The translations under genes and the position numbers were made by a program. The notes under the pieces were generated by a model. That model was not told the DNA's origin. It worked only from the letters and a program-made list of their open reading frames with translations, and made no database searches. This document shows, piece after piece, positions 1 through 38,696 of a DNA stretch of 38,696 bases (the stretch's first letter is position 1; every line of letters begins with the position of its first letter). Where the stretch lies: positions 1-38,696 of IMG/VR virus record IMGVR_UViG_3300045988_140085. One strand, written 5' to 3'. Source of the stretch: a virus.

Positions 1-75
1 CGCATCCGAGGAAACGCAGGCCGCAGAGACCAACGCATCCGAGGAAACGCAGGCCGCAGAGACCAACGCATCCGA
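1..75. repeat. Terminal overlap: bases 1..75 are identical to 38622..38696 (circular closure or terminal redundancy signature); unique unit 38621 bp
   Basis: Direct comparison of the two window ends. The overlap is made of 2.3 copies of a 33-bp tandem unit. Protease-to-capsid synteny is restored across the junction. Confidence 0.9.
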
Positions 76-112
76 GGGAGAAACGAACCACAGTCGCCCC
101 CTGCCGAAAGGT

Positions 113-1429
113 ATGACGTGGCATGAACATACAATTAATCAAAAACCAAAATCATTAAACATGGAAAAGACTTTTCGTGAACTCAACTGTGACGTTGAGT
201 TTCAGCGTCGTCTCAACGTTCTGAACGCGGCTTTCCGGGCCGGGGGTACGACGGCTGACAACAACCCCGAAAACGTGGAGACCGTCCGCATGATCGCGTG
301 CTCGATGCTCGCCGATCAGAACATGGTGGTGCTTGCAAACGCTTGCAACTTCACCAACTCCGTAACCAAAGAGCGCAAAAACGGTCTCGGTCTGCTCGTG
401 GAGTGCGCCGCTGGTGGTGCCGCCGCCGCTACGCTGTCTGCCGCTGACCTCGGTGTGATCAAGTGGATGTCGTTGTTCTACGAAAAACTCCTCCCGAACA
501 ACTCGTTCATGCGTTCGATCCGTTTCGTCCCGATGTCCGACAAGGAGGGTGCGATCTACGTGGAAAGCGGTATCAACCCCGCAACGTACACCGGATCGGT
601 TACGCCCGTCAACGCTCCGCGGTACTTCTACGACGACATCAAGCGTACGATTGCGCGTGAGGTGTTCTCGATCCAGCCCGTGACGTTCCAGAACGCGGAC
701 ATGGCCATCCTCGCGTACGACAAGCAGTCGTGGGGTTGGACCATCGCAATGGACTCGCTGATGTCCGACGTGTGCACGTACATCTTGCAGGTCGTTGCCA
801 ACACCCCCGGTATCGCAAAGGTTCCGACCACGGGTGCAACGTTCTCGTCGAGCGGCCTGTTCCCCATCGAAGCCCCGAACTCGAACGTGAACATCAAAGG
901 TGTGTCATCGGACGACATCACTATGGCCGTCGGTGCGTTCCTCGTACAGAACTATAAACTGAACGGTCGCCGCGTCGAAGCCGTCCTTTCGTCGAACCTG
1001 TTTACTAAACTGGCCACCGACCCGACGTTCAAAACCATCCTTACCCCGCAGTTGTCGGGTGCCGTTGGTAGCGAGTTCCAGTACAACGGTGTCACGATCT
1101 CCGGACGTAACCCGGTCGCACGCTACAACACGACCTCCGGCAAGCCCGAACTCGACCCGGCCATGTACACCGACGGTACGGTGGACAACGACGGCAAGAT
1201 CACCGACGTAACCCCGGCAACGACCACCGCCAATCATGTAGGTGCGGGTCTCGCATTCGTCGAGGGCGAGGTTATCGCAGGTGTAGGTACGATCGACGTG
1301 ATCGTCATGCCCGATCCGACCAACTACGGCATCACGATGTCCGGTTGGATGTCTACCGGTGCAACCGTGGCCCGTCAGAACGGCAAGGGCGTCGCGCTGA
1401 TTACCCCGACCGTCGTAGCAGGCTCGTAA
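113..1429 (+). CDS. Major capsid protein (candidate). The reading frame is open from base 2, so it is in frame with the prohead protease ORF that runs off the window end. Alternative internal start at ATG 161 (MEKTF...).
   Basis: 438-codon ORF immediately after the protease and before sheath and tube. A 32-nt perfect palindrome follows the stop. The fold family was not verifiable by eye. Confidence 0.7.
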   Translation: MTWHEHTINQKPKSLNMEKTFRELNCDVEFQRRLNVLNAAFRAGGTTADNNPENVETVRMIACSMLADQNMVVLANACNFTNSVTKERKNGLGLLVECAAGGAAAATLSAADLGVIKWMSLFYEKLLPNNSFMRSIRFVPMSDKEGAIYVESGINPATYTGSVTPVNAPRYFYDDIKRTIAREVFSIQPVTFQNADMAILAYDKQSWGWTIAMDSLMSDVCTYILQVVANTPGIAKVPTTGATFSSSGLFPIEAPNSNVNIKGVSSDDITMAVGAFLVQNYKLNGRRVEAVLSSNLFTKLATDPTFKTILTPQLSGAVGSEFQYNGVTISGRNPVARYNTTSGKPELDPAMYTDGTVDNDGKITDVTPATTTANHVGAGLAFVEGEVIAGVGTIDVIVMPDPTNYGITMSGWMSTGATVARQNGKGVALITPTVVAGS

Positions 1430-1438: not shown

Positions 1439-1470
1439 GACACGTAGGCACATTAATGTGCCTACGTGTC
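1439..1470 (+). terminator. 32-nt perfect palindrome (gacacgtaggcacatt/aatgtgcctacgtgtc) just after the capsid gene; hairpin terminator or attenuator candidate
   Basis: Read directly. It lies 10 nt after the capsid stop. No U-tract follows. Confidence 0.55.
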
Positions 1471-22661: not shown

Positions 22662-22684
22662 ACGTTTAATTTTTAAGAAATTTG

Positions 22685-22789: not shown

Positions 22790-23389
22790 TCAGGCGTATT
22801 CTTCGAGGTCGATATAATCGTCGACGTTGTTCGACGATCCGGCGATACGTTCACCGTCGGCATACTTCACCACAGCGTGAACATTGCAACCGATGCCCTG
22901 CGCGGTGGAGTTGTAATACGTCCAGAACGATACGTTTGCAATGATGTAATCGCCATCCTCCAGACGTTCGTCGGAAAGGTTTTCCACCGACACGTTCGGC
23001 ATGGGCACACCGTTTATAATCATACGGCGTTGCATGTCCGATACCAACGGGCGGAAATTCTTGGACGCTACTTTGAGCATCATATACCCGCGAAACGCTT
23101 CTTTGCCGTCGTTCATATCGGCGAACTCGTCACCGTCAACCCAGCAGTTATTTTTAGGGTTGATCGCTTTCGCGTTCTTGCCTTTGAATCCTTTCGACTG
23201 AAGTTCTGCGAACGCTTCGGCGAAACGGTCGTTGATCTGTTTGACTTTGTCCTCGTCCGTCTTAGGCACGAGGATAATTGCGTTGTACTTGGGGTCGCCC
23301 TCCACACCCTTTACTGCCTTTTTCTCGAAAAGACCTGCGGGGTACACGACACGGCACACGGGTGCGCCCTTAATTTGAAATCTGTCCAT
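22790..23389 (-). CDS. Single-stranded DNA-binding protein, T7 gp2.5-like (DUF2815-type)
   Basis: 199 aa. The N-terminal pattern (YPAGLFEKKAVKGVEGDPKYNAIILVPK) and the acidic aromatic C-terminal tail (NNVDDYIDLEEYA) are typical of phage SSBs. Confidence 0.65.
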   Translation of the reverse strand: MDRFQIKGAPVCRVVYPAGLFEKKAVKGVEGDPKYNAIILVPKTDEDKVKQINDRFAEAFAELQSKGFKGKNAKAINPKNNCWVDGDEFADMNDGKEAFRGYMMLKVASKNFRPLVSDMQRRMIINGVPMPNVSVENLSDERLEDGDYIIANVSFWTYYNSTAQGIGCNVHAVVKYADGERIAGSSNNVDDYIDLEEYA

Positions 23390-23421
23390 ACGTTTAAATT
23401 GTTTAATTGGTTTGAAATGTG

Positions 23422-23853
23422 TTATGCGTTTTTAAGCGCGTTAATGTAGTACTCTTTGAGACGTTTTTGTCCCTCGTCGTCATCCTCCGAGATGAAAATA
23501 TGGGCGAGAGTAAGCACGTTTTTGTCCGTAACGTTCAGCGTTACGCCGTTGCTCACCTCAAACTGCAACATTATGCCTTGCACGAAGACCTGTTCGTGCA
23601 AATCCATGCAGTCTTTTACATAGTCGTGCAGGTCTTTGAGTGCGTCGGCCTCGTCTGCCTCCCCGATCAAGGCCTCCCACAGACCTTTAGACTGTTTGAT
23701 CGTTTCGATCAGTCCGATGACGTGGCAGGCCGTCGATACGTCGGGATTCGGGAACTTTTCGACCGTGTTCCCGATCTTAACCTCCAAAGCGCCGTTTTCG
23801 TACTCAACGAATTTTGCGCTCATAAGAGCGTTCAAATCATAATAGCTTTTCAT
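23422..23853 (-). CDS. Hypothetical protein
   Basis: 143 aa ORF with the conserved leader aattaaacgtATG. Confidence 0.55.
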   Translation of the reverse strand: MKSYYDLNALMSAKFVEYENGALEVKIGNTVEKFPNPDVSTACHVIGLIETIKQSKGLWEALIGEADEADALKDLHDYVKDCMDLHEQVFVQGIMLQFEVSNGVTLNVTDKNVLTLAHIFISEDDDEGQKRLKEYYINALKNA

Positions 23854-23861
23854 ACGTTTAA

Positions 23862-24599
23862 TTAAATTAAAGGATTTATAACGTTAGCGAGTTTACATAA
23901 CTCGACAATACGTTCGGAATGGTTTAAGTAGTAATACGAACTTTTATGCAACAACGTAACCGGGAGTTCGTACCGACGGTCCGGCGTGTAGCCCGCACGA
24001 GTAAAAAGACCAATAAGATACTCTACGTTGCAATGGTTTTGGTAAGACTTACGTCGGTGAAACTCGTCGCGCGGCACCTCGTCCGTGAAAAATAAGTCCA
24101 TCATGTCGCCCGTTGATAGCGTGTTATTACACTCTATATAAATATGATCGAAACGTTTGTCTTTCAACGCACGAATGATGTATTTTTCGTCCACAATTTC
24201 GTTAAAATCGGTAAGCCAAAGGATCGTTTGCGGTTCAGCGTATTCCGACCGTGCACACCTTTGTATCTCGAAGCCCACGCACGGGACGTCATGCCGCAAG
24301 GGGATGATCTTAACGGTGTATTGGAACTCATTGGAACACAGCACTTTAACGTCACCCGGGGTAAGGCTGGAGAATGCCAAGAAAGGCCATTTATGGGCTA
24401 ATCTGTCGGCTGTCTCGGGGGTGCAGTAGGTAGGTAAGCCCCCCACCTTATCGAGGCATTTTGTGTGGTCCGTGTGGTTGTGAGTGAGTAATACATGCTC
24501 CCCTTTGGGCACCTCGGGCCACCCTACGTCAATAATCAGAAAGTCGTCGATTGATGCGGTGTTACCGCTACTACCGGAGTGTACTATATTTACGTTCAT
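23862..24599 (-). CDS. Metallo-beta-lactamase-fold hydrolase (possible nuclease)
   Basis: HxHxDH motif LLTHNHTDHTK near the N-terminus; later His/Asp ligands (RHDVPCVGF, LTDFNE). Confidence 0.75.
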   Translation of the reverse strand: MNVNIVHSGSSGNTASIDDFLIIDVGWPEVPKGEHVLLTHNHTDHTKCLDKVGGLPTYCTPETADRLAHKWPFLAFSSLTPGDVKVLCSNEFQYTVKIIPLRHDVPCVGFEIQRCARSEYAEPQTILWLTDFNEIVDEKYIIRALKDKRFDHIYIECNNTLSTGDMMDLFFTDEVPRDEFHRRKSYQNHCNVEYLIGLFTRAGYTPDRRYELPVTLLHKSSYYYLNHSERIVELCKLANVINPLI

Positions 24600-24602
24600 A
24601 CC

Positions 24603-25079
24603 TTATACGTTTAACTTTGCACCGCTTGCGTTTTCGATCGCTTTGAGGACTTGATCCAATTTGTTGGCGTCACGTTCGGACAAAGCCGTGAACAGGTTTG
24701 TCAGTACCTTACGACGCAAGGCGTGGAATGTAGGATTTGCGAACGCATTAACGAGGTCACGACCGCCCCGTTTCTCGTGCACAACACGGAACTCACGCAC
24801 GTTAAATTCGCTCATATCGTCCCCGTTAGGGAACTCGACACAAACGGTAAACCAGCCTTTGAACCCCGGCAGGCATTCGTCCGGCGACTCGACCCCGGAC
24901 GAAAATACATTGCGTATTAGATCATTGATACCCTCGACGCTACCGCACTCCATGATGGTACGGGGTATATCAGCACACCCGAAACCGTACCCTATATATT
25001 TTAATGGTGTGTAGTACTTGCGCACGCTCGTTTGGATATAATTTGCGTGCACCGTTACCGTTAAGACGATGTTATTCAT
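24603..25079 (-). CDS. Hypothetical protein
   Basis: 158 aa ORF. Confidence 0.55.
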   Translation of the reverse strand: MNNIVLTVTVHANYIQTSVRKYYTPLKYIGYGFGCADIPRTIMECGSVEGINDLIRNVFSSGVESPDECLPGFKGWFTVCVEFPNGDDMSEFNVREFRVVHEKRGGRDLVNAFANPTFHALRRKVLTNLFTALSERDANKLDQVLKAIENASGAKLNV

Positions 25080-25106
25080 GGCTTAATTATGTTAAATTAT
25101 TAGGGC

Positions 25107-25132
25107 CCGGCGGTCCGATCAAAGACCGCCGG
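25107..25132 (-). terminator. Hairpin; sense strand reads ccggcggtc-tttgatcg-gaccgccgg (9-bp stem, 8-nt loop)
   Basis: Read directly in the gap between 25145 and 25079. The loop is identical to that of hairpin 3751..3774, but the stem sequence differs. Confidence 0.6.
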
Positions 25133-25144
25133 ACAAGATGCGCA

Positions 25145-25702
25145 CTACTGGATGCCGTGCGTCTCGGCTATCGCACGCAGGCGGGCCGTTTCTTGCGCTT
25201 TTTGGTAGAGTGCATCCAACTGATCCGCTACGACCGGATAGTGATTGAACGCGGGTCCGCGCTTGCACTCCGTGACAAAACAGCAATAGTTGCCATACCT
25301 CAGACAATACCCACCGCTCTCCACCGTAATCGTCGCACCTTTATCGACCAATTCGGTCCATTGTTTTATGATGTTAATAAACGTTCGCGGTACTTTTTTC
25401 CATCGTGCCGCCTCGCCGATTAATCCGCCCGCACTCGACATCTTTTGTACAAGCCAGTCGATAGTAGGCTCTTTGGGGTATTGGTACGTCTTACTCCCGT
25501 TGCGCGTTTCGATCTTTATACCGGACCGCGCTACGCGCGGGAAATTGGTGTACCAATCATTATACTCCTGCGAAACTTTCGCAGGAAATAGACATACATC
25601 CACACCGTACTCGTCGGATAGCTTTTTAAGACGTTCGTACAAAGCGCGTGATTCCTCGGACGTATCCGGGATTATCGGGTTCCCTTTCTTCGCTACCACC
25701 AT
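25145..25702 (-). CDS. Hypothetical protein
   Basis: ORF. Start moved to MVVAKKG, because the longer N-terminal extension overlaps a better micro-ORF. Confidence 0.5.
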   Translation of the reverse strand: MVVAKKGNPIIPDTSEESRALYERLKKLSDEYGVDVCLFPAKVSQEYNDWYTNFPRVARSGIKIETRNGSKTYQYPKEPTIDWLVQKMSSAGGLIGEAARWKKVPRTFINIIKQWTELVDKGATITVESGGYCLRYGNYCCFVTECKRGPAFNHYPVVADQLDALYQKAQETARLRAIAETHGIQ

Positions 25703-25800
25703 GATATAAACGATGCTATAATAATAACTACTACGATTACATATAGCAACCCTACGCACATAAAGAATAGAATTGCAAAATCTTTTTGGTCTTCCTCCAT
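25693..25800 (-). CDS. Micro-ORF, 35 aa membrane peptide (MEEDQKDFAILFFMCVGLLYVIVVVIIIASFISWW), not in the ORF track
   Basis: TAAGGTATG start context right after the upstream stop. Its TGGTGGTAG end overlaps the downstream ATG. Fills a 100-nt gap. Confidence 0.5.
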   Translation of the reverse strand: MEEDQKDFAILFFMCVGLLYVIVVVIIIASFISWW

Positions 25801-25803
25801 ACC

Positions 25804-26325
25804 TTAATCTTTTGTTACCATCTCCCACGAATCAGTGAGCGAATTGTGTTTGCCGTACTTGGTTGCGGATAGGAACATGGCACCGGGGGTACGTTTTTCG
25901 AACATCTTTTGTGCGCTGTACACGTCCGGTGCTTCTACGCTGGCGTGGTACCCGTTGCAATCCGCAGGATCGGCCTTTGTATAGATTATATCATAGCCGA
26001 ATTTGTCGTACAGTCGCCCAAACTCTTTGTAATGATCCTCTACGATCTGCCGCGCGGCCTCTTTGAGAATGCACACGCGCGTTGAGGGTGTCGAATGCTC
26101 CCCAACTGCATCTAACAAACGGTGGTCCGTGGGGCAGGGCAGTCGGCCCCATTGCGAAATAGACGTCACCCGTGTGTTAAATGCTTCGTCATTCTCCCAC
26201 GCTCGTACCAACTCTTTAGTCGTCCATCGCTCCAATACGATCCGCTTGTGCAAGCCGTTCACGAACTGTGCGAGATACTCGCGGTGCGTGCATTTGTGAT
26301 TAAGATAGTCCTGACGTGTGTACAT
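25804..26325 (-). CDS. Hypothetical protein
   Basis: 173 aa ORF with leader cttaaacactcaaaactATG. Confidence 0.55.
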   Translation of the reverse strand: MYTRQDYLNHKCTHREYLAQFVNGLHKRIVLERWTTKELVRAWENDEAFNTRVTSISQWGRLPCPTDHRLLDAVGEHSTPSTRVCILKEAARQIVEDHYKEFGRLYDKFGYDIIYTKADPADCNGYHASVEAPDVYSAQKMFEKRTPGAMFLSATKYGKHNSLTDSWEMVTKD

Positions 26326-26424
26326 AGTTTTGAGTGTTTAAGTTTGCGGGCAATATCGCCCGGTTCGTGCGTTACGCGGTTTCGCTCCGCCGTGTTGCGT
26401 CTTACGCAAATAACGCTACCCCCT

Positions 26425-27618
26425 TTACTCTCCGACGGTGAAACGTATTACGTTCTGCACGTCGTCGAGGCCCTGCACGCTCTCGGCGTTGTCGATGATG
26501 ATCGGTATCTTGTCGATGGTACCCGTCATCACTCGCGCCGTCTCCAATATCCGCACGCATATCTCTACGCGCTTGGCCCGGTTAACGCTTTTGAGCGGCA
26601 CACCTTTGTAGGTGAGGGTGCAGGTGGACGAGGTGCGCCCGGTTGTCTTGGCCGTCGTCTCGGTTATGATCTGCACGTCGTCCGGCAGGGCGGGACGGAC
26701 TGCCGCCGCATCAGCGGCCCGGATTTGTTCCTCCAGCGCGGCCATCTGCTCGTCGATGTCCTGCACACGACGGCGTGCGCCGGACGCCCGCGATATGATC
26801 GCTTCGGCCTCATTGATGGCCGCCGTCTCAGCATTGTAGGCTTTGAGCCGCTCGGTTATCCTCTCCACCTCCGCCCGCATACCTTGATAGGCTTCGTTGG
26901 CGGCGTCCCGCTCGCGGCGCACGGCGTCGATCTCGGCGGCTGTGTACTGCTTGCCGCACGTCGGGCAGACTGTCGGCAACGTCCCGCCGATCCGGTTAAG
27001 CGTCGCAACGTGCTCACCTGCTCGCGCCATGTAGTCCGTTTCGGCCTCGGTCAGCGGCTCGACGGTCCGGGTAGGCACGGCCACGGTGGTTAGCGCGTAT
27101 TGCTCGGCCGCGCGGCGTTCTTTGCGCAGGGCATCACGCTCGCGCCGGAGGTTTGTCGCTTCGTCGTTCTCAACGAGGGACGCACGCGCTAACAGGCGGC
27201 GTAACTGCTCGGCGGTAAGCGCCGGGTCGGTCAAAAGGTTTGCGTCAGCACACGCGACTACGAGGTCAATAGGTATGCCGAAACGCTGGGCGAGGATGTC
27301 GGTAAACTCGGCTTGCGTAACCACCTCATCGCACAAATATAATTGTGTCGATCCCTTGGGGGTGAGTACACGCCGTATAGTCGTGCCGTCGGAGGGCCAG
27401 CCCGTAATCGTTACACAGGTGTTGACACTTGGGCTTGGGTCCATACCTGTCTGCGGGTCTATGCGCCGCGGTTGGAACCCGTTGAGCGTTCTACCCGTGA
27501 GGGCGAAGACCCATGCGTTAACCTGCGTTGTTTTGCCCGCCCCGTTAGGCATCGTGCGGGATGTGAATGGCGCGTTAAAGACATCGAACGCGCCAAATAG
27601 TACCATTGATAGTTTCAT
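26425..27618 (-). CDS. Mini Rad50/SbcC/SMC-like ATPase with a central CxxC zinc-hook-like motif
   Basis: Walker A MPNGAGKTT at the N-terminus. A long Arg/Glu/Ala coiled region has CPTC (26956..26967) at its midpoint. C-terminal IPIIIDNAES is Walker-B-like. Confidence 0.7.
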   Translation of the reverse strand: MKLSMVLFGAFDVFNAPFTSRTMPNGAGKTTQVNAWVFALTGRTLNGFQPRRIDPQTGMDPSPSVNTCVTITGWPSDGTTIRRVLTPKGSTQLYLCDEVVTQAEFTDILAQRFGIPIDLVVACADANLLTDPALTAEQLRRLLARASLVENDEATNLRRERDALRKERRAAEQYALTTVAVPTRTVEPLTEAETDYMARAGEHVATLNRIGGTLPTVCPTCGKQYTAAEIDAVRRERDAANEAYQGMRAEVERITERLKAYNAETAAINEAEAIISRASGARRRVQDIDEQMAALEEQIRAADAAAVRPALPDDVQIITETTAKTTGRTSSTCTLTYKGVPLKSVNRAKRVEICVRILETARVMTGTIDKIPIIIDNAESVQGLDDVQNVIRFTVGE

Positions 27619-27647
27619 ACGTTTAAGTGTTTAAGAGTTTTAAAAGA

Positions 27648-27678
27648 GTCCCCGGCCCGGCACCTCCAAGCCGGGGAC
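27648..27678 (-). terminator. Rho-independent terminator; sense strand reads gtccccggc-(13 nt)-gccggggac followed by tcttttaaaa
   Basis: 9-bp GC stem plus a U-rich tail, 60 nt after the stop of 27740..28345. The conserved leader motif follows immediately. Confidence 0.7.
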
Positions 27679-27739
27679 GTAGTAAGGTATGCACCGCCTG
27701 CGAAAGCGAATGGTTTTTGATGCACACCTATTTACCTCT

Positions 27740-28345
27740 CTACTGCGCGTCCGGGTCGATACCGGCGGCGATCAGCATTTGCCGCAGACGCTCGGCTTCG
27801 CTCTGCATCTTGACGGCCTTGCTCTCGACCTCGGCCAGTCGTGCCGATACGCTCGCGCGGCCCGCGCTCTTAGGCAGTTCGAACGACATTACGACCTCTT
27901 TTGCGGCCTCGACGTCGGCGTCGAACTGTTCCGCTTCCTCTTTGCGGGCCTGCAACTCGGCTTCGAGGCGGGCGATCTCGGCGACGATCTTCTCGCGGTT
28001 CTTCTCCTCGGCCTGCACGAAAGCGGCGGCACGTTTGGCGGCGATCTCGGCGGCACAGTCGGCGGGGATTTCGATGTCCTCGACCACACCACGCACGAGT
28101 TTTTCGGTCCCATCTTCCTGCTTGGTGAGCGTTGCGCGGAAGAAATTCCCGGTTCGCTTCTCGAAGTTGAGCGCGGCGGCACTCAATGCGGGCAGTTTGG
28201 CGCGGAGAATCGCGGTTGCTTTCTGCACCTCGGGCGTTGCGTTTTCGGCGGCCTCTTTTTCAGCGTGTTCTGCGGGGATCGGCTCGGTCTGCGGCTTCAT
28301 CTCCTGCAATTCGTTCGGGTTCTGTACTTTCGTTTCGTTTTTCAT
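27740..28345 (-). CDS. Hypothetical coiled-coil protein (Ala/Glu/Lys-rich)
   Basis: 201 aa ORF. It is the only frame with a sensible start and leader (aaaaacatttacaggtATG); the antisense ORFs are GC artefacts. Confidence 0.6.
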   Translation of the reverse strand: MKNETKVQNPNELQEMKPQTEPIPAEHAEKEAAENATPEVQKATAILRAKLPALSAAALNFEKRTGNFFRATLTKQEDGTEKLVRGVVEDIEIPADCAAEIAAKRAAAFVQAEEKNREKIVAEIARLEAELQARKEEAEQFDADVEAAKEVVMSFELPKSAGRASVSARLAEVESKAVKMQSEAERLRQMLIAAGIDPDAQ

Positions 28346-28396
28346 ACCTGTAAATGTTTTTAAGTGATTAATAATTAGACGTCTTTACGTCGTTGT

Positions 28397-28444
28397 GGCG
28401 GGCCGGGGTGTTACTCCCCGCGGGACGGTTTGCCGTGACCCGCC
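28397..28444 (-). other. GC-rich multi-hairpin element (outer ggcggg/cccgcc; inner cgggg-tgttact-ccccg and acgg-tttg-ccgt)
   Basis: Read directly in the 104-nt gap between 28450 and 28345. Confidence 0.4.
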
Positions 28445-28449
28445 GTACC

Positions 28450-28884
28450 TTATTTGTTGTACTCCCGGTCGAATGCACGGAGTAAATAGTAGTCCTTTTT
28501 GTAGTACTTGCTTACTATTAGCACCCTTTGCGACGTATTGAGGCCTATGGCCATACCTGCTACACCTTGAACGTACGTTACTAACGGCAGGTCTTCGTGT
28601 ATCGCTGTTTTGTACGCTTCGTCGTACTCCTTGAACGTTTTGAATCTTACCTCTTTTGTCGAGGCGCTACGCACCACGATTGCAAACTCCCCCTCGGCTG
28701 TTGTGACGATCTTTGCGCGTCGTATCGGCTCGTACTCCTTTTTGCACCTCTCGCAGAACTCCGTTACGGTCATCTGTTCGTCGTATAACCGCGAATAGTC
28801 CATTACGTTGTACAGTCGGGCCGTCGTGTCATACGTTACACGCACTAACGTGCTACGCTTTTTGTTGATATAATACGTTGTCAT
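28450..28884 (-). CDS. Hypothetical early protein
   Basis: 144 aa ORF. Confidence 0.55.
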   Translation of the reverse strand: MTTYYINKKRSTLVRVTYDTTARLYNVMDYSRLYDEQMTVTEFCERCKKEYEPIRRAKIVTTAEGEFAIVVRSASTKEVRFKTFKEYDEAYKTAIHEDLPLVTYVQGVAGMAIGLNTSQRVLIVSKYYKKDYYLLRAFDREYNK

Positions 28885-28890
28885 ACCTTG

Positions 28891-29235
28891 TTAGTCTAAG
28901 ATAAAACAAACTACGTTATACATGTGCTTTTCGTCCGGGTCCCGCACCGCTATCACGGCGTCAGCCACATGCCCGAGGTAGGCAAGCCTACCTAAAAGTA
29001 TCTCGGATTGATCGCTTTGATCTACGATGCCCACCACCGTGCATTTGGTCTTTTCGTCCATTGCCTGCCGTATTCGTGGCGTGCAAGTGAGCACTACGCC
29101 GTCGCCGTCCTCCGGCGTTATCTCCGTCTCGACCCCCGCCGTACCTTTGAGCAGGTCCCCGGCGCTCAACAGTGCGTAATTCTCTGGTTCGATGTTGAAC
29201 TCTTTGGTGATCTTCAAAAACTCGATTGCTTTCAT
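28891..29235 (-). CDS. Hypothetical early protein
   Basis: 114 aa ORF with leader cacttaaacacttaaacgtATG. Confidence 0.55.
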   Translation of the reverse strand: MKAIEFLKITKEFNIEPENYALLSAGDLLKGTAGVETEITPEDGDGVVLTCTPRIRQAMDEKTKCTVVGIVDQSDQSEILLGRLAYLGHVADAVIAVRDPDEKHMYNVVCFILD

Positions 29236-29274
29236 ACGTTTAAGTGTTTAAGTGTTAGAGCCGGGCCACGGTTT

Positions 29275-29652
29275 TCATTGCATACAACGCTCGATTAACG
29301 CCCACGCCCGTATATGCGCCCTTACTTGCACGTCCATCCACGTTTCGCGTGCGTTGGGGGCCTTGCGTCCATAGTCGGTACGTCTCAACTCGGACGGCGT
29401 GCAAAGCGTTTCAGCGATTTCTCCGTCGTAGATCATTGCACAACCGCCATAACAATACTGTTCCCAGCCGTTCGCACCGTTAAGTACAGTTTTTTCGGTT
29501 AGCGGGGGCACCGAGTCTGACCCCTCCCGATCCCGTACTATCTCCTCGTACCTGTCTAACAGACCCTTGGCGATCTCTTTCACGCCCTTGTCCCATGCTG
29601 ACCGGGGTTTAATGCCCTCCAGTCGTACCCGTATCTTCTGCATCTCTTTCAT
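29275..29652 (-). CDS. Hypothetical early protein (first gene of the leftward operon)
   Basis: 125 aa ORF with leader cttaaactatttaaaaacttaaacacttacaactATG. Confidence 0.55.
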   Translation of the reverse strand: MKEMQKIRVRLEGIKPRSAWDKGVKEIAKGLLDRYEEIVRDREGSDSVPPLTEKTVLNGANGWEQYCYGGCAMIYDGEIAETLCTPSELRRTDYGRKAPNARETWMDVQVRAHIRAWALIERCMQ

Positions 29653-29725
29653 AGTTGTAAGTGTTTAAGTTTTTAAATAGTTTAAGTATATCGGGGTGTC
29701 GTTATCTTCTCCCCCTTTCGTTACA

Positions 29726-29756: not shown

Positions 29757-29956
29757 ATAAAATTACGGAAAAATGTGATAAAATCGTGAAATAAAACGGT
29801 TTTGTGTACTATACACCCCTTGCAGACCTTTTTTGTTTACTTTCCTGCCCTTGCATACCTTTTTTGTTTTGGGTCCGGGCCGAAACGGTTTACTTTACTT
29901 TACAGGGTGTTAAGTAAAAAGACGAAAATCGTTAAGTAAATGACAAATGATTTCGC

Positions 29957-30782: not shown

Positions 30783-30886
30783 GCGATACGGCGGCCCGTC
30801 GGCCCGGCGATACGGCGCGAAAGGCTGGCCGCCGAGACGCCGCCCCGCTGTTTCAATAATTGAACTTGCTCCCCGTGGAACACTCT

Positions 30887-30946
30887 CGACGTATCGACGT
30901 ATCGACGTATCGACGTATCGACGTATCGACGTATCGACGTATCGAC
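30887..30946. repeat. Perfect 8-bp tandem repeat cgacgtat x 7.5
   Basis: Read directly. Flanked by GC-rich blocks carrying related cgatacgN octamers in the opposite orientation. Confidence 0.95.
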
Positions 30947-31078: not shown

Positions 31079-31262
31079 AAAAAAATTTTTTAAAAGTACC
31101 ACCGGAATAGTAGGTCTAAAAATTTTTAAAAGTACAATTAATAGGGTAGGCCTAAAAATTTTTTAAATGGTAAAATTGGAGTAGCGTATACGTTTAATTT
31201 TTAAATGGTAAAATTGGAGTAGCGTATACGTTTAATTTTAAAACGGCAAATTTGGAGTAGCA
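31079..31262. repeat. AT-rich tandem repeats, about 5 units of 36-38 bp; the two central units are an exact 42-nt duplicate (31160..31201 and 31198..31239, period 38)
   Basis: Read directly; units begin near 31079, 31117, 31154, 31196 and 31234. Confidence 0.85.
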
Positions 31263-31705: not shown

Positions 31706-33136
31706 ATGGGACTTACAACGAAAATACGGCTCACGAAAAAACAGAACGAAGCGATACGGCTTTTGGACGACAGACACAAAGACCTCATACTCTTGCTGGG
31801 GGGCTCGGGATCGGGGAAATCTTTTGTCGAAGTCTACAAGGTCATACGCGACGCACTGCGGTACAAAGCCCCGTGTCTTATCGCCCGTGACAAACTGATC
31901 GACTTGACCACAGGTGTGATCGACCAAATCGTTCCGGTGATCCTCCAGTTGATCGCAGAGGAGAACGGGCAGGAGAGATGGGACAAATGGACCATCGACG
32001 GGTTGAAGTTCGCCGTTTGGTCGGACAAACGAACCAAACTTACGTTCGCAACAGGCGGTTATGTAAGGTTCGCAGGTCTGTCGAAACGTGACATATCGGA
32101 GAGCGGTTCGGATAAAATCCTCTCGCCGTCGTGGTTGCACATCGCAATCGAGGAGGTGTCGGAGGTCGATTGGCCGATCATTGAGTTACTTATCACACGT
32201 TTGCGTTTTCAGACCGAAGGTGTGACAAATAAACTCATAATGACGGAGAACCCGCCGTCGATGTATCACTTCTCGTACAAACGTTTTTTGGAGAACCAAC
32301 GCGAGGACGGATCGGAGTTGCCGGAGGAGGAACGCGCACGACAAGCGTACCTTTTCATGCAACCAAAAGACAACGAGGAGAATCTTTCGGAGAACTATAT
32401 ACGTAACCTTTCGCAACTGTCCGGCGCGAATCGGGAACGTTTCTATTTGGGACAGTTCCAAGACGCAGAGCAGGGAGAGATATTCAAACGTATAAGTTGG
32501 ACGAAAGTCCTGCCGCGCAAGTGCGAGTGGGAGCGGTTGTGCATATACACCGACCCGACCCCGCTTACAGGTACGGACCACAGCATTTGGGCGGACTATA
32601 AGGCAAGCGTGCTTTGCGGTCTGTTTGACGGTAACGCATACGTGCTCGACATACGCATCGTAAAAGGCTCTACGTTGCAAATGCTTAACAACATCAAGCA
32701 GTTGTGGGACATGTCGCCAAACCAATCCATAACAGAGGTATGGATGGAGAAAAAGCAGATACCGTCGGACTTCGATCAGGTCATGCGTAACTTTGCGCTT
32801 ACAACCGGGTGGATGTGCCCCGTAAGGTATGACACGCGCAACTTCGGTGACAAGACCGCCGCAATCGAGACGTTCCTCGAACCGCTGTTCGAGGACGAGC
32901 ATATATTTTTTAACAACGCATTCCGCGATACGGAGCGTGGCCGACAGTTGCAACATCAGATACTTAAGTTCTCGCGTAAGCAGAACAAGAACAGGCACGA
33001 CGATATACCGGACGCAATCATGCGTTGCGTAACGAAATTAATGGGTAAAAAGGGACGTAAGCAACGTATGAAAGACGCACCGTTGGTTATGTTCGCAAGA
33101 CCCGGTTACATTCACGATATAGTAAACAATGGATAA
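31706..33136 (+). CDS. terL: Terminase large subunit
   Basis: Walker A LLLGGSGSGKSF, Walker B-like WLHIAIEEVSE, and a C-terminal nuclease region with ...CIYTDPT... and NRHDDIPDA acidic motifs. Confidence 0.85.
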   Translation: MGLTTKIRLTKKQNEAIRLLDDRHKDLILLLGGSGSGKSFVEVYKVIRDALRYKAPCLIARDKLIDLTTGVIDQIVPVILQLIAEENGQERWDKWTIDGLKFAVWSDKRTKLTFATGGYVRFAGLSKRDISESGSDKILSPSWLHIAIEEVSEVDWPIIELLITRLRFQTEGVTNKLIMTENPPSMYHFSYKRFLENQREDGSELPEEERARQAYLFMQPKDNEENLSENYIRNLSQLSGANRERFYLGQFQDAEQGEIFKRISWTKVLPRKCEWERLCIYTDPTPLTGTDHSIWADYKASVLCGLFDGNAYVLDIRIVKGSTLQMLNNIKQLWDMSPNQSITEVWMEKKQIPSDFDQVMRNFALTTGWMCPVRYDTRNFGDKTAAIETFLEPLFEDEHIFFNNAFRDTERGRQLQHQILKFSRKQNKNRHDDIPDAIMRCVTKLMGKKGRKQRMKDAPLVMFARPGYIHDIVNNG

Positions 33137-35874: not shown

Positions 35875-37209
35875 ATGTTTCAGAATCCGTATAACATAAT
35901 GAATTTCCACGGCGTCCCCGGCGCACGGATTCAAGCGTTACCTCAAAACTACCACTTTGAGTTGACGATGGAAACGTGGTGGAGCGCTGTACAACGTGCC
36001 CGAGTTTACTCGGATTTTACAGGTTTGGACGCATTGTTCAGCTACCTGTTGAAAAGTAGCACGTTGATCCGGTCCGCTGTTGACAAGCGACTGCGCCCGT
36101 TAAAGTCACGCACATTTGGCGTGATGGTAGACGGGAAAGAGGACGAACGTTTGACGAAGTTGATTAAAAACTCGCCGTTTGTCCGTGAACTGATCTACCA
36201 ACGAGGCTTGGCCAACTTCACGTTCGCACGTGTTGTAGGTGTGAATAAGGATTTCTCGACGTACGTTTATCCGTTGAGAAACCTCGACATCGTGAACAAA
36301 GCCGTACGTCGGATGACTTACGAGATACAAGACCCGATTTACGTCAAATCGCACGTAAACCTGTTTTGGATGCAGACCTCGTACAACTCCGAAGATACGT
36401 TAGGACTTTTGGAGCCTGTGGCCCGCGATTACATCAACATGTGCAACGCACAGAACAACTGGCAGACCGCCTCGCAGTTCCTTGCGTACCAGCAGATGAT
36501 GATGTATTTCGAGAACGGGGACGAGGAAATGCAAAAGGCGGCCGAACTCGGAGCCAAACAGGTAGGTTTGGGGCAGGTAATTATATCCGGCAAATCTACC
36601 GACGAGACGACGGGCAAGGTTGTCAAAGACTTGGAGTTGGAGAACGTTTACGGCGGCGCGTCCGCTGATACGTTCCGTATCTTCAAAGAGAACATCGAAC
36701 AGTTACGCGGTTCGATTATGCAGTTGATCCTCGGTTCCTCTTTGCTCGGCATGAGCGAAAAGAATACGAACTCCGAACGTTTGGTGCGTGCGCATCTTAA
36801 ACTGTTCCGGGATATTACCGAGGCTGACGCAATCGACGTGCAGGATTGGTTCAACATCCCCGAGGTGAAGACAAAACTCGCTTACCTGTTCAACGAGCCT
36901 GCTTTGGAGGAAGCACGTTTTGAGGTGAAACCGTCGAACTACATTGACATCGGGGACATCGAAGCGTACACAAAAATGCTCAAAGACTTGATGTTGCTCC
37001 CTACGGAGGGTTTCATTGAGAAAACAGGTTTGAGCGTAGCAGACGTAACAGGCTATGAAAACAATAAAAACGTTAGCAAGGGAGGCCAAGCAACTGGCGA
37101 CGTACGCAAAAAGGGGGATGATAAGAGAGGTTTCGCAAGTATGGTTATGGACCGCGCAAAACGCTTTTTTAACAGAAACCGACCCGTCGACGGGGGAAAA
37201 GTGGGCTGA
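35875..37209 (+). CDS. Portal protein (candidate)
   Basis: 444 aa. Lies between the terminase block and the head-maturation genes. Has a disordered Gly/Lys/Asp-rich C-terminus. Confidence 0.55.
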   Translation: MFQNPYNIMNFHGVPGARIQALPQNYHFELTMETWWSAVQRARVYSDFTGLDALFSYLLKSSTLIRSAVDKRLRPLKSRTFGVMVDGKEDERLTKLIKNSPFVRELIYQRGLANFTFARVVGVNKDFSTYVYPLRNLDIVNKAVRRMTYEIQDPIYVKSHVNLFWMQTSYNSEDTLGLLEPVARDYINMCNAQNNWQTASQFLAYQQMMMYFENGDEEMQKAAELGAKQVGLGQVIISGKSTDETTGKVVKDLELENVYGGASADTFRIFKENIEQLRGSIMQLILGSSLLGMSEKNTNSERLVRAHLKLFRDITEADAIDVQDWFNIPEVKTKLAYLFNEPALEEARFEVKPSNYIDIGDIEAYTKMLKDLMLLPTEGFIEKTGLSVADVTGYENNKNVSKGGQATGDVRKKGDDKRGFASMVMDRAKRFFNRNRPVDGGKVG

Positions 37210-37570
37210 TCGTCACGGTTTCATACGTGATTCCCGTGGTCAGCATTTCGGCAATGTTGAGCCGTACCTCTCGTACAGTAAGTTACATCGTACAGGACGG
37301 CTGTTAAAAGGTCTGAAAGTGCGCTATTCTACGTTTGCGACCGGAAAAGCGTTTATAGAACTCTACAACAAGGTTCCTTACGCAGAGGTGCATGAAAAAG
37401 GGGGAAGCGATACGTTTCGCGTGTTGAAGTTCCCCGATACACCAGCAAAAACGTCCGTAAAGGTCGGCGGAAACATCGAGCCACGTCCGTTTATGGAGCC
37501 GAGCAAACAAGTGTTAAAAGCACCCTATCGCCTGTTGACAATGAAAATGCAGGAATTCGGGTGGAGATAA
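37055..37570 (+). CDS. Head-tail joining / virion morphogenesis protein (HK97 gp10-like or Mu G / P2 S-like)
   Basis: HRTGRLLKGLKV...YNKVPYAEVHEKGG...IEPRPFMEPS matches the family pattern. The ORF opens only at 37049 and overlaps the portal 3' end by 155 nt. Confidence 0.5.
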   Translation: MKTIKTLAREAKQLATYAKRGMIREVSQVWLWTAQNAFLTETDPSTGEKWADRHGFIRDSRGQHFGNVEPYLSYSKLHRTGRLLKGLKVRYSTFATGKAFIELYNKVPYAEVHEKGGSDTFRVLKFPDTPAKTSVKVGGNIEPRPFMEPSKQVLKAPYRLLTMKMQEFGWR

Positions 37571-37579: not shown

Positions 37580-38107
37580 ATGGTAGGATACGTAAGTGAA
37601 GCCGTTGCCAAAGCGTTGAAAAACTGGAAACCTTTGGCCGACGCAGGCATTATCCCGATCCGCGCAACGGGCGGCACTACGGTACTGGAGAACATCCCGC
37701 TACCGTCCATAGGTTTGCATGTGATCGGAGACGACGGAGAGGGTAATACGTTTTTCGGCGGCGGTATTCGTCAATATTTCGAACTTATATTGTACGTTTT
37801 GCTCCCGATAACAAACTACACGTTCTCTCCGGACGGCGGGGCGCAAGCCGAGCAGTTGGATATTTCGGACGACGTCATACGTTGTATGGAGCAGTCCAAA
37901 GACTTGGATTATATCAAGCAGAGGCACGATTTTAACATACAGTACGACCGTATGGATACGGACCAAACGTACGGAACGCAAGGTGCTATGTCCGTAGTTG
38001 TTGACGTTCATAAGATCGTGTACAAAGGTTCTGTCGAGTTCGACCCGAAATTGCAGTACGATGATACGGCGGTTTTGGAAAACGTAAATATTAATATCGA
38101 AAAATAA
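37580..38107 (+). CDS. Hypothetical virion-module protein
   Basis: 175 aa ORF with start context ataaggtATG. Confidence 0.5.
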   Translation: MVGYVSEAVAKALKNWKPLADAGIIPIRATGGTTVLENIPLPSIGLHVIGDDGEGNTFFGGGIRQYFELILYVLLPITNYTFSPDGGAQAEQLDISDDVIRCMEQSKDLDYIKQRHDFNIQYDRMDTDQTYGTQGAMSVVVDVHKIVYKGSVEFDPKLQYDDTAVLENVNINIEK

Positions 38108-38696
38108 TGAGGGTATCAGAAAAGAAACAGGTTCTTACGACCAGCGCGGTCAATCTGAACGGGGTTCAGATTCCGACTGACTGTATCGACTGGAGTGTCT
38201 ACGACAAGAACCCCGTACTTTTGTACAATCGTGCAAACGAGAGTCACAAAGGTGTGGTAGTAGGTAAGGTTCTGAACCGCGAACGTGTAGGGGATGCGAT
38301 TGTTGCAAACCTCGCTTTCATGGAACGGAACGAGGACGCGGATATCGCGTTCGAAAAGTACGATCAAGGCGTCCTGCCTCACGTTTCTGTGGGTGGATAT
38401 GCACGCGGCGAGGAAAACTCGGAGGGCGTATTTATCTGCGACAAGTACATGATTCGTGAGGTATCGCTCGTAGCGTTCCCCGCAAACATCGAATGTGCTG
38501 TGTTGGACGACAACAACGTACTCGCATCAGAACAGCCGATCGTGGAAGGTATGCGAACGGGCAAAACCGAAATCCGTTATGTAACGTTGAGTTGGGACGG
38601 TGATATGGGAACCATCGTGAACGCATCCGAGGAAACGCAGGCCGCAGAGACCAACGCATCCGAGGAAACGCAGGCCGCAGAGACCAACGCATCCGA
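38107..38696 (+). CDS. HK97-family prohead (capsid maturation) protease, S78 type. The ORF is not terminated in the window and continues in frame at base 76 into 113..1429. Not in the ORF track.
   Basis: Hand translation: MRVSEKKQVLT...NESHKGVVVGKV (His), HVSVGGYARG (Ser), IREVSLVAFPANIE (family hallmark). Its ATG overlaps the upstream stop (TAATG). Confidence 0.8.
   Translation, partial: MRVSEKKQVLTTSAVNLNGVQIPTDCIDWSVYDKNPVLLYNRANESHKGVVVGKVLNRERVGDAIVANLAFMERNEDADIAFEKYDQGVLPHVSVGGYARGEENSEGVFICDKYMIREVSLVAFPANIECAVLDDNNVLASEQPIVEGMRTGKTEIRYVTLSWDGDMGTIVNASEETQAAETNASEETQAAETNAS
38620..38696 (+). repeat. In-frame 33-bp tandem repeat (aacgcatccgaggaaacgcaggccgcagagacc, encodes NASEETQAAET); 2 full copies plus a diverged partial copy continuing at 76..85
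   Basis: Exact tandem copies at 38620..38652 and 38653..38685; the same text is seen at 1..66. Confidence 0.9.

What the first reader, a model, noticed from the sequence alone, without database searches (positions are those of the whole stretch)
38107..38696. Prohead protease reads through, without a stop codon, into the major capsid ORF across the circular junction
The protease ORF starts at 38107 and carries the HK97-type hallmarks: ...NESHKG..., ...HVSVGGYA..., ...EVSLVAFPAN.... It has no stop before the window end.

After collapsing the 75-bp terminal overlap, codon phase is preserved (38695 corresponds to base 74, and codons fall on 2, 5, ... 113). The frame stays open through ...NASEETQAAETNASEETQAAETNASEGETNHSRPLPKGMTWHEHTINQKPKSLNMEKTF... 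to the capsid stop at 1429. That gives one ORF of 647 codons.

The two domains are joined by an acidic NASEETQAAET tandem-repeat linker. Either the phage makes a protease-linker-capsid polyprotein that would self-deliver the protease into the procapsid, or the capsid protein is also or instead made from the internal starts at 113 or 161. Nested or fused protease and scaffold genes are well known. I believe a direct protease-capsid fusion is much less common, but I cannot verify this here.
Basis: partly seen in the sequence, partly recalled or inferred. Interest (0 to 1): 0.65.

Follow-up and report, generated by a model that had tools for sequence, protein, structure and literature searches.

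The report
Phage protease–capsid fusion gene, real
The head-maturation protease and the major capsid protein of this gut phage are encoded as one continuous gene joined by a variable acidic repeat, an arrangement already catalogued in other phages, and sequence signals suggest the capsid part is also translated separately from an internal start.

Summary
The ORF starting at 38107 runs off the window end and continues in frame to the stop at 1429. The ends share exact overlaps of 75, 42 and 9 nt because they lie in a perfect 33-nt tandem repeat. Copy number is therefore ambiguous (647, 658 or 669 aa), but the frame cannot break. An independent contig is identical over 5.5 kb across the junction and gives 669 aa.

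More than 100 related 36-38 kb phage contigs carry the same uninterrupted fusion. So do nearly all relatives down to about 25% identity.

Structure prediction gives four parts:
- an assemblin/T4 gp21-fold protease;
- a disordered acidic linker of variable repeat number;
- a helical, delta-like domain;
- an HK97-fold capsid protein.

Protease-capsid fusions are a known kind (NCBIfam NF045541, PHROG 4523, actinobacteriophage "capsid and protease fusion"). This is a new, unannotated sequence family of that kind, in a Mu-like head module of a probable Alistipes phage.

New here: ATG161 looks like a genuine start. It is the least structured of 211 internal ATGs, sits at the GC3 minimum of the gene, and the signal recurs across lineages. 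This suggests nested capsid translation, which is unproven.

The parts
38107..38696 (+). 5' part of the fusion gene (aa 1-196 plus two bases). The start ATG overlaps the upstream stop (TAATG).
   Evidence: Homologues start with the same MRVS(E/K)KKQ.
1..1429 (+). 3' part of the same gene across the assembly junction. Codons fall on 2, 5, ...; the stop is TAA 1427-1429.
   Evidence: The contiguous copy in L028 is identical over 5,508 nt.
38107..38511 (+). Prohead protease domain, aa 1-135. Ser94 (38386-38388) is nearly invariant in the 62-sequence alignment and invariant in the N-domain alignment. His47 (38245-38247) is the candidate catalytic His.
   Evidence: AF2 pLDDT 95. Foldseek best match T4 gp21 5jbl, TMq 0.66, prob 1.0, then herpes proteases. 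Peptidase_S78 in 15 of 62 relatives. Conserved columns N35, G53, F71, S94, E118, S120.
38518..38619 (+). Start of the predicted disordered region after the protease (from aa 138). It includes the conserved short strand EIRYVTLSW and Met167.
   Evidence: pLDDT below 50 over residues 138-212 of the model of P0004. Met167 does not look like a start (dG -9.1).
38620..38696 (+). 33-nt tandem repeat (unit AACGCATCCGAGGAAACGCAGGCCGCAGAGACC, encoding NASEETQAAET), copy at the window end.
1..77 (+). The same 33-nt tandem repeat at the window start. It is the acidic variable-number linker, and the assembly broke inside it.
   Evidence: Linker length varies in 11-aa steps among relatives. Nine of 17 IMG/VR relatives break at this point.
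78..160 (+). Conserved segment after the repeats (GETNHSRPLPKGMTWHEHTINQKPKSLN). Its last ~35 nt (126-160) are A-rich and G-free and resemble a translation initiation region.
   Evidence: GC3 is 2/14 against 0.71 for the rest of the gene, the gene-wide minimum. It contains the longest G-free run on the + strand.
113..115 (+). It is probably just a conserved residue (GM[TA]WHE).
   Evidence: Start-context score ranks 76 of 215. dG is -11.8, rank 72 of 211, typical of internal ATGs.
161..163 (+). ATG161 (Met226), the probable internal start of a 422-aa delta-domain plus capsid protein.
   Evidence: Least structured of 211 internal in-frame ATGs (dG -5.5, against a mean of -5.3 for true starts and -13.4 for internal ATGs). 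The equivalent ATG ranks 1-3 among in-frame ATGs in 10 other lineages. The first helix of the model begins 4 residues later.
173..409 (+). Helical, delta-domain-like (scaffold-like) region, aa 230-308.
   Evidence: AF2 helices 219-297 in P0004 numbering, pLDDT 65-86, followed by a disordered stretch. Its scaffold role is inferred by analogy with the HK97 gp5 delta domain.
503..1426 (+). HK97-fold capsid core, aa 340-647.
   Evidence: pLDDT above 90. Foldseek matches to solved capsids 9jwb, 8i4l, 7y23, 3j7w, 8e16, 8eci and 8eco at E 4e-13 to 1e-8.
1439..1470 (+). Perfect 14-bp hairpin (GACACGTAGGCACA-TTAA-TGTGCCTACGTGTC), 10 nt after the capsid stop.
   Evidence: Read directly. Its function as a terminator or RNA stabiliser is inferred only.
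37580..38107 (+). Upstream 175-aa gene of unknown function. Its stop overlaps the fusion start. A gene of similar size (181-213 aa) sits at this position in three distant relatives (L019/L020, L021, L025).

Best explanation
This is one real gene of the late (head) operon, of at least 647 aa and 669 aa in an independent contig. It encodes, from N to C:
- a serine prohead protease with the S78/assemblin fold;
- a disordered, strongly acidic tether built from a tandem repeat of variable copy number;
- a helical, delta-domain-like segment;
- an HK97-fold major capsid protein.

Proposed mechanism (inferred). The capsid part of the full-length product co-assembles into the procapsid shell with its N-terminus pointing inward, so the protease is packaged automatically by covalent linkage. 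Once concentrated inside, the protease removes itself, the tether and the delta-like segment. This leaves a mature capsid protein of about 310-340 aa.

In this lineage the ATG at 161 probably also serves as an in-frame internal start. It would make a protease-free delta-plus-capsid protein of 422 aa, so the protease-bearing form need not be stoichiometric. I put this at about 0.6. The logic is the same as Mu I/Z, lambda C/Nu3 and herpesvirus UL26/UL26.5, except that here the nested product is the capsid protein itself.

Shown: continuity of the ORF, its conservation, the folds, the variability of the linker, and the start-like nucleotide signature at ATG161. Inferred: proteolytic activity, cleavage positions, inward orientation, and use of ATG161.
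For: Continuity
- The join is in frame for every possible overlap.
- Independent contig L028 is identical across the junction.
- 119 of the 120 listed homologues are full-length fusions.
- Eight IMG/VR loci have uninterrupted ORFs of 637-767 aa.

Family-wide fusion
- Most relatives that match the capsid part, down to about 25% identity, are 600-905 aa long and match in two stretches, the protease and the capsid part.
- The distant relative MT835567 (35% identity) is also fused, at 774 aa.
- The top BFVD structural matches align over 650-800 columns. They are themselves long proteins annotated as prohead protease or major capsid protein, including Lactobacillus phage SA-C12.

Folds.

Protease signature
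- Ser94 is nearly invariant, and invariant in the N-domain alignment.
- Peptidase_S78 is reached by 15 of 62 relatives.
- TIGR01543 and NF045541 give weak hits.

Genome context: Portal_Mu, a Mu gpG-like gene, a 175-aa gene, the fusion, then a DUF2586 sheath-like gene. Three distant relatives (L019, L021, L025) show the same portal-to-fusion order.

Internal start at ATG161
- GC3 is 2/14 in the 14 codons before it, against 0.71 elsewhere (Fisher p = 2e-5). This is the global minimum of the gene.
- Predicted RNA structure around it is -5.5 kcal/mol, rank 1 of 211 internal ATGs, equal to the mean of true starts.
- The equivalent ATG ranks 1 in clades 2 and 3. It ranks 2 in L027, L018, L019, P0143 and P0149, and 3 in L021 and P0170.
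- The modelled structure starts right after this Met.
Against: - There is no expression, proteomic or activity data.
- The protein itself reaches no Pfam threshold. TIGR01543 scores 17.8 bits against a cut-off of 59.
- The canonical catalytic His column holds Arg42. His47 lies 5 residues later, so the active-site assignment is tentative.
- P0165 has no Met at the pre-capsid position, and in P0140 the signal is weak. The fusion alone must therefore suffice in at least some relatives.
- A-rich, unstructured RNA could also reflect polar linker peptides, although the third-codon-position signal argues against this being the whole story.
- The position-weight score of ATG161 is only 10th of 215.
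Confidence: 0.8

Rival explanations
1. Polyprotein only. Every capsid subunit is made as the full protease-linker-capsid chain, 1:1, and ATG161 is not used. Under this view the A-rich, unstructured stretch reflects a polar inter-domain peptide or a translational pause for co-translational folding.
For: - At least one relative (P0165) has no Met at that position, and in P0140 the signal is weak.
- A back-of-envelope estimate, not a tool result, suggests about 415 N-terminal extensions of about 33 kDa would occupy roughly one third of a T=7 procapsid interior, similar to known scaffold loads. A 1:1 design is therefore physically feasible.
- Actinophage fusions are annotated as single products.
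Against: - The synonymous third-position bias (2/14 against 0.71) is not explained by peptide composition.
- ATG161 is the single least structured of 211 internal ATGs.
- The signature recurs at the same boundary in lineages with different peptide sequences.
Confidence: 0.3
2. Two functionally separate proteins. The capsid protein comes essentially only from ATG161. The long read-through product is an incidental by-product of a lost stop codon, and the protease works as a free enzyme after self-cleavage, without needing the covalent link.
For: ATG161 has start-like features.
Against: - The open frame across the linker is kept in 119 of the 120 listed homologues and in most distant relatives at 25-35% identity, despite extremely fast turnover of the linker sequence.
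- All repeat units are multiples of 3 nt (33 nt and 18 nt). This shows selection to stay in frame.
- No stand-alone capsid-only homologues were found, other than truncated gene calls.
Confidence: 0.05
3. Assembly artefact. The ends of a linear contig happen to share a repeat, and the 'fusion' is created by wrongly circularising.
For: The contig breaks inside a tandem repeat, and three different overlaps are possible.
Against: - An independent contig is identical over 5,508 nt and spans the junction internally.
- More than 100 contigs carry the gene intact.
- Contigs that break do so exactly in this repeat, as expected for a de Bruijn graph problem rather than a real genome end.
Confidence: 0.01

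Closest known systems
[quoted passage not shown]
   Same: The domain order is the same: an N-terminal S78-type protease and a C-terminal HK97-fold capsid protein in one ORF of about 630-730 aa. The gene also sits just after the portal region.
   Different: - Sequence similarity is limited to the protease part (25 bits against a cut-off of 525 for NF045541; PHROG hits cover aa 27-199 only).
- The capsid part matches no Pfam, NCBIfam or PHROG model.
- The host is probably Alistipes (Bacteroidota) and the phage is a contractile-tail type of about 38.6 kb, not a small actinobacterial siphovirus.
- It has a variable-number acidic repeat linker and a start-like internal ATG. I did not find either described for the known fusions, but my literature search was limited.
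HK97 gp4 (protease) and gp5 (delta domain plus capsid protein)
   Same: - The protease family or fold is the same.
- A helical N-terminal extension on the capsid protein probably acts as scaffold and is removed.
- The gene order is portal, protease, capsid (D3/HK97 description in 10.1101/2025.06.14.659615).
   Different: In HK97 the protease is a separate protein, and it is recruited non-covalently (from my own knowledge of the HK97 literature). Here the link is covalent.
Phage Mu head genes I (protease-scaffold), Z (scaffold, from an in-frame internal start within I) and T (capsid)
   Same: - The module is Mu-like: Portal_Mu, a gpG-like Phage_tail_S gene and a DUF2586 sheath-like gene.
- The in-frame internal start within the protease gene is a recognised Mu feature (PMC4378225).
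- In 8 of 8 distant relatives, the least structured internal ATG lies immediately after the protease domain, at the head of a charged scaffold-like region.
   Different: - Here there is no stop between the I-like and T-like parts.
- The window's own clades lack the post-protease start signature. They carry a short acidic repeat in place of a long charged region.
- No Mu transposase was found. The replication genes are PolA, VapE-like, SNF2 and SSB.
- Homology of the capsid part to Mu gpT was not shown.
Herpesvirus UL26 / UL26.5 (protease-scaffold fusion with a nested, more abundant scaffold product)
   Same: The protease has the assemblin fold. It is delivered by covalent fusion to an assembly protein, with a proposed shorter in-frame product that sets the stoichiometry (PMC11565193).
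   Different: - In herpesviruses the fusion partner is the scaffold, not the capsid protein.
- The nested product there comes from its own transcript. Here it would come from internal translation initiation on the same mRNA (inferred).

Membership tests
S78 / HK97-family prohead serine protease (Pfam PF04586, TIGR01543) | Profile match above the curated threshold | tested here: not met
   There is no Pfam hit at E <= 1. TIGR01543 scores 17.8 bits against a cut-off of 59. However, 15 of 62 aligned relatives hit PF04586, the best at 8e-11, so membership holds only by transitive homology.
S78 / HK97-family prohead serine protease (Pfam PF04586, TIGR01543) | Assemblin-like protease fold | tested here: met
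   The AF2 N-domain model has pLDDT 95. The best PDB match is T4 gp21 (5jbl, TMq 0.66, prob 1.0), followed by EBV, HCMV, PrV and KSHV proteases.
S78 / HK97-family prohead serine protease (Pfam PF04586, TIGR01543) | Conserved nucleophile Ser in the (V/I)S(I/V)GG motif, plus the E-x-S-L-V ... P-(A/S)-N motif | tested here: met
   Ser94, Glu118 and Ser120 are invariant in the 30-sequence N-domain alignment, and Pro125 and Asn127 are at least 90% conserved there. Ser94 is nearly invariant in the 62-sequence alignment.
S78 / HK97-family prohead serine protease (Pfam PF04586, TIGR01543) | Catalytic His at the canonical position (KNPxLLxxH) | tested here: inconclusive
   Most relatives have His 8 residues after the K of KNP. 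The window's sub-lineage has Arg or Pro there and a His 5 residues later, which is His47.
S78 / HK97-family prohead serine protease (Pfam PF04586, TIGR01543) | Proteolytic activity on capsid or scaffold precursors | not testable with these tools
   This needs expression of wild-type and S94A constructs, or virion proteomics.
HK97-fold major capsid protein | HK97 fold (spine helix, E-loop, P and A domains) | tested here: met
   The AF2 model has pLDDT above 90 over residues ~330-636. There are 312 PDB matches at E <= 1e-3, and the top 50 listed are all tailed-phage or archaeal-virus capsid proteins, with a best E of 3.9e-13.
HK97-fold major capsid protein | Match to a capsid sequence family (for example Pfam Phage_capsid or Mu-like gpT) | tested here: not met
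   No capsid family is reached in Pfam, NCBIfam or PHROGs for this protein or for 62 relatives.
Prohead protease / major capsid fusion protein (NCBIfam NF045541, PHROG 4523) | Protease and capsid protein in one ORF, with the protease N-terminal | tested here: met
Prohead protease / major capsid fusion protein (NCBIfam NF045541, PHROG 4523) | Full-length sequence match to the family model | tested here: not met
   NF045541 scores 25 bits (cut-off 525), covering aa 44-174 only. PHROG 4523 has E 8e-6, covering aa 46-199 only. The architecture is the same but the sequence family differs.
Nested in-frame head genes (Mu I/Z, lambda C/Nu3, herpes UL26/UL26.5) | An internal in-frame start codon with the features of a real initiation site | tested here: met
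   ATG161 has GC3 2/14 against 0.71 (p = 2e-5), dG at rank 1 of 211, and a signal conserved across lineages. The evidence is computational only.
Nested in-frame head genes (Mu I/Z, lambda C/Nu3, herpes UL26/UL26.5) | The shorter product is actually made | not testable with these tools
   This needs initiation-site ribosome profiling, N-terminal proteomics or mutagenesis.
Mu-like morphogenesis module | Mu-type portal, gpG-like and sheath-like genes in Mu order | tested here: met
   Portal_Mu scores 42.6 bits (cut-off 23.9). DUF2586 scores 53.7 bits (cut-off 26.4). Phage_tail_S scores 21.8 bits, just under its cut-off of 24.3. PHROG 26 also hits.
Mu-like morphogenesis module | Transposable (Mu-type) replication | tested here: not met
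   The large early genes scanned encode DNA pol A, a VapE-like protein, an SNF2 helicase and an Enc34-type SSB. No transposase was seen among the proteins scanned, but not every ORF was scanned.

The most novel reading that the evidence does not exclude
The whole family uses one long head gene as a set of nested genes. In the window's phage, the full-length protease-tether-capsid chain would be a minor, self-delivering form, and ATG161 would give the bulk protease-free capsid precursor. In distant relatives a second internal start, right after the protease domain, would add a scaffold-capsid form, for three products from one frame. That would extend the Mu I/Z and herpes UL26/UL26.5 principle to the capsid protein itself. 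It would operate through SD-less, A-rich initiation sites of the kind reported for Bacteroidota (my own knowledge, not checked here). The hypervariable acidic repeat would be present only in the minor form.
Probability: 0.55. Interest if true: 0.55.

Novelty: new member of a known kind. Interest (0 to 1): 0.4.

Why it matters
For annotation: this abundant family of gut-phage head genes is invisible to Pfam, and sources label it 'hypothetical protein' or just 'prohead serine protease'. Its capsid protein is therefore missed, and assemblies break in its repeat.

For biology: it gives a compact, all-in-one head-assembly gene, with protease, tether, scaffold-like segment and shell in a single ORF, in phages that probably infect Alistipes. 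It also comes with a clear, testable prediction of nested translation.

If confirmed, it would show how protease dosage is set when the protease is fused to the shell protein. It would also provide natural variants of tether length (36-145 aa) for studying how a tethered protease works inside a procapsid.

Tried and rejected
- Pfam on the fusion gave nothing.
- A profile search of the N-domain against PDB sequences gave only a chance hit to a fucose synthetase. The fold search was needed instead.
- tblastn against 50,697 deposited phage genomes found one unannotated relative, so no isolated phage can serve as a reference.
- The search for related loci with the 62-sequence alignment failed because no block was conserved enough. 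Three scans of viral contigs with distant representatives found nothing. The look-up of encoding contigs supplied their DNA instead.
- A simple position-weight matrix of 46 gene starts discriminates poorly. ATG161 ranks 10 of 215, and the top 'internal' ATG is probably a mis-called true start. I relied on RNA-structure and third-position tests instead.
- My first scan for a pre-capsid Met used too narrow a window and wrongly suggested it was absent in P0143 and P0170. Widening the window found it.
- ATG113 is rejected as a start.
- SD-led GTG/TTG starts were looked for in distant relatives and not found.
- Literature searches for experimental work on protease-capsid fusions returned only genome announcements. 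PMC11965321 held nothing relevant.
Full report
**1. Observation**

The ORF that starts at 38107 overlaps the stop of the upstream gene (TAATG) and has no stop before the window end.

Both window ends lie in a perfect 33-nt tandem repeat, at 38620-38696 and 1-77. The ends therefore share exact overlaps of 75, 42 and 9 nt. These give ORFs of 647, 658 or 669 codons, all ending at 1427-1429. Because the unit is 11 codons, copy number cannot change the frame.

An independent MEGAHIT contig (L028, 38,443 bp) holds the gene internally. It is identical to the window, joined with the 9-nt overlap, over 5,508 nt, and encodes the 669-aa version exactly. The junction is an assembly breakpoint in a repeat, not a genome end. 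Nine of 17 related IMG/VR contigs end at the same place.

**2. Conservation of the fusion**

A search of 5.8 billion proteins returned 217 hits. Of the best 120, 119 are full-length fusions of 636-737 aa, most on contigs of 30-38 kb. They fall into an 89-97% identity clade and a lower-identity set at about 58-73%. Reading the loci shows a third clade within that set.

An exhaustive HMMER search of 1.84 billion cluster representatives found 118 hits. Most proteins that match the capsid half, down to about 25% identity, are 600-905 aa long and match in two stretches, the protease and the capsid part. Stand-alone proteins of 130-460 aa match only the protease part, and weakly.

The only relative among deposited phage genomes is MT835567 (35% identity). 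It is unannotated and is also fused, at 774 aa. The fusion is thus the ancestral state of a large, uncharacterised family.

**3. Anatomy**

An AF2 model of the 636-aa homologue P0004 was built with a 62-sequence alignment and has mean pLDDT 82. In P0004 numbering (add 11 after the repeat for the 647-aa window version) it shows four parts:

| Part | P0004 residues | Confidence |
|---|---|---|
| Compact N-terminal domain | 1-135 | pLDDT > 90 |
| Disordered stretch | 138-212 | pLDDT < 50 |
| Helices | 219-297 | pLDDT 65-86 |
| HK97-like domain | ~330-636 | pLDDT > 90 |

- **Capsid part.** It matches solved phage capsids at E down to 3.9e-13, including cyanophage A4, P-SCSP1u, Kp9, T7 and several actinophages.
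- **Protease part.** Modelled alone (pLDDT 95), the N-domain best matches the T4 prohead protease gp21 (TMq 0.66, prob 1.0), then herpesvirus assemblins. Fifteen of 62 relatives reach Pfam Peptidase_S78. Ser94 is nearly invariant in the 62-sequence alignment and invariant in the N-domain alignment.
- **Caveat on the active site.** The canonical His column holds Arg42 in this sub-lineage, and His47 lies five residues downstream. The catalytic His is therefore not settled.
- **Sequence families.** Neither half reaches a Pfam threshold in the window protein. The capsid half matches no Pfam, NCBIfam or PHROG family.

**4. The linker**

The linker is always acidic and low in complexity, but its unit differs by clade:

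- Clade 1 has NASEETQAAET, NASAEPEPEPV and DASEQEPAPEPV-type units.
- Clade 2 has EAAAEGEGEPV.
- Clade 3 has DPEPNN.

In clade 2, the spacing between two fixed motifs is exactly 90 + 11n residues, with n = 0-9, in 85 sequences. The linker segment measured ranges from 36 to 145 aa, and its net charge from -6 to -40.

Copy numbers from short-read assemblies may be compressed, so individual values are uncertain. All units are multiples of 3 nt, so the frame is kept despite rapid turnover. This argues that the covalent link is under selection.

**5. Context and host**

The neighbouring genes are Portal_Mu (35875-37209), a Mu gpG-like gene (37055-37570), a conserved 175-aa gene, the fusion, a 189-aa gene, a DUF2586 sheath-like gene (2066-3256) and a large terminase (31706-33136). 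Three distant relatives (L019, L021, L025) show the same portal-to-fusion order.

The replication genes are PolA, VapE-like, SNF2 and SSB, not a transposase.

One homologue is labelled Alistipes putredinis. The only hit in 185,579 species genomes is a 38.5-kb contig binned with an Alistipes MAG. The host is therefore probably Alistipes, but this is not proven.

**6. One product or two?**

I built a set of 46 likely gene starts and 211-215 internal in-frame ATGs from the window.

- **Composition.** True starts are A-rich and G-poor: mean A 0.39 and G 0.165 in the 25 nt upstream, against 0.26 and 0.27 for internal ATGs.
- **RNA structure.** True starts are unstructured. Mean dG over -30..+30 is -5.3 kcal/mol, against -13.4 for internal ATGs.
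- **ATG161.** Its dG is -5.5, the least structured of all 211 internal ATGs.
- **ATG113.** Its dG is -11.8, rank 72.
- **Third positions.** The 14 codons before ATG161 have GC3 2/14 against 0.71 for the rest of the gene (Fisher p = 2e-5). This is the global minimum of the gene. The bias is at synonymous sites, so peptide composition does not explain it.

The equivalent ATG ranks as follows among in-frame ATGs in other lineages:

| Lineage | Rank of the pre-capsid ATG |
|---|---|
| Clades 2 and 3 | 1 |
| L027, L018, L019, P0143, P0149 | 2 |
| L021, P0170 | 3 |
| P0140 | 4-5 (weak) |
| P0165 | absent |

In all eight distant lineages, rank 1 belongs to another ATG. It lies immediately after the protease domain, at the head of a long charged region. 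That is where Mu starts its scaffold gpZ inside gene I (PMC4378225). The window's clades lack this first signature (Met167, dG -9.1) and have only the short acidic repeat there.

The modelled structure begins four residues after Met226, so a product starting there would have a natural N-terminus.

I conclude that nested initiation at ATG161 is likely (about 0.6) but unproven. The fusion alone must suffice in at least P0165.

**7. Comparison with known systems**

The architecture is already catalogued:

- NCBIfam NF045541 is named 'prohead protease/major capsid protein fusion protein'.
- PHROG 4523 is 'major head and protease protein'.
- Actinobacteriophage papers describe the fusion as common in small siphoviruses (PMC9671004, PMC6606914).
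- The best BFVD structural matches are long fused proteins, including the 'major capsid protein' of Lactobacillus phage SA-C12.

The window protein matches those models only through its protease part and far below threshold. It is therefore a new sequence family of a known kind, not a member of NF045541.

Functionally, it combines HK97-style capsid-borne scaffolding with covalent protease delivery of the herpesvirus or Mu type (PMC11565193).

**8. Verdict**

The added value lies in three points:

- proof that the junction is real;
- the family-wide conservation and the hypervariable in-frame tether;
- a specific, testable prediction that ATG161, not ATG113, starts a nested capsid precursor.

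Noticed in passing
window 1868-1946 (inside gene 1490-2059): There is a second in-frame tandem repeat (18 nt x 4.4, 98% matches, encoding KEPEPA/KEPEPV) in the gene immediately downstream of the capsid gene. The otherwise identical contig L028 starts to differ from the window exactly here (window ~1928), and its product is 183 aa rather than 189 aa. This is a second acidic Pro-rich variable-number repeat in the head region.
   Followed up: partly
window 1439-1470: A perfect 14-bp hairpin with a TTAA loop lies 10 nt after the capsid stop, with no T-run after it. It may be a terminator, attenuator or mRNA-stabilising element. Its conservation was not checked.
   Followed up: no
window 37055-37209: The portal ORF (35875-37209) and the Mu gpG-like ORF (37055-37570) overlap by 155 nt in different frames. 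The gpG-like domain match already starts at residue 5 of the second ORF. In relative L019 the overlap is only 17 nt, and in L028 the gene caller skipped this ORF. The overlap could be real, a recoding site, or an extended portal tail.
   Followed up: no
window ~22250-29660, minus strand gene starts: Several minus-strand early genes carry TTAAAC-containing stretches directly before their ATG, and some carry near-identical ones (CTTAAACACTTAAACGT, CTTAAACACTCAAAACT, ATTAAACGT). Examples are the genes ending at 27618, 29235, 29652 and 26325. The hexamer TTAAAC also directly precedes ATG161.
   Followed up: partly
window 30886-30946, 31160-31261, 29800-29867: Three further repeats: a perfect 8-nt repeat TCGACGTA x 7.6, a 38-nt repeat x 2.7 just upstream of the terminase region, and a 31-nt repeat x 2.2 in the gap between the divergent gene blocks. 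They are candidate origin, packaging or operator sites.
   Followed up: no
window 38230-38247 (aa 42-47): In this sub-lineage the canonical catalytic His column of S78 proteases holds Arg or Pro, and a His appears 5 residues later. Most distant relatives keep the canonical position. This may be a shifted active-site His.
   Followed up: partly
loci L018, L019, L021, L022-L026 (distant relatives): In all eight distant relatives, the least structured in-frame ATG of the fusion gene lies right after the protease domain and opens a long charged region rich in Glu, Lys, Asp and Ala (for example IINQFENK|MKNEEEKK). This suggests a Mu gpZ-like nested scaffold start, which would yield a scaffold-capsid product.
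   Followed up: partly
window 13722-27618: The head and tail genes are Mu-like (Portal_Mu, gpG-like, DUF2586), but the replication block encodes family A DNA polymerase, a VapE-like primase/helicase, an SNF2 helicase, an Enc34-type SSB and a metallo-beta-lactamase-fold protein. The genome is therefore mosaic and apparently not a transposable phage.
   Followed up: partly
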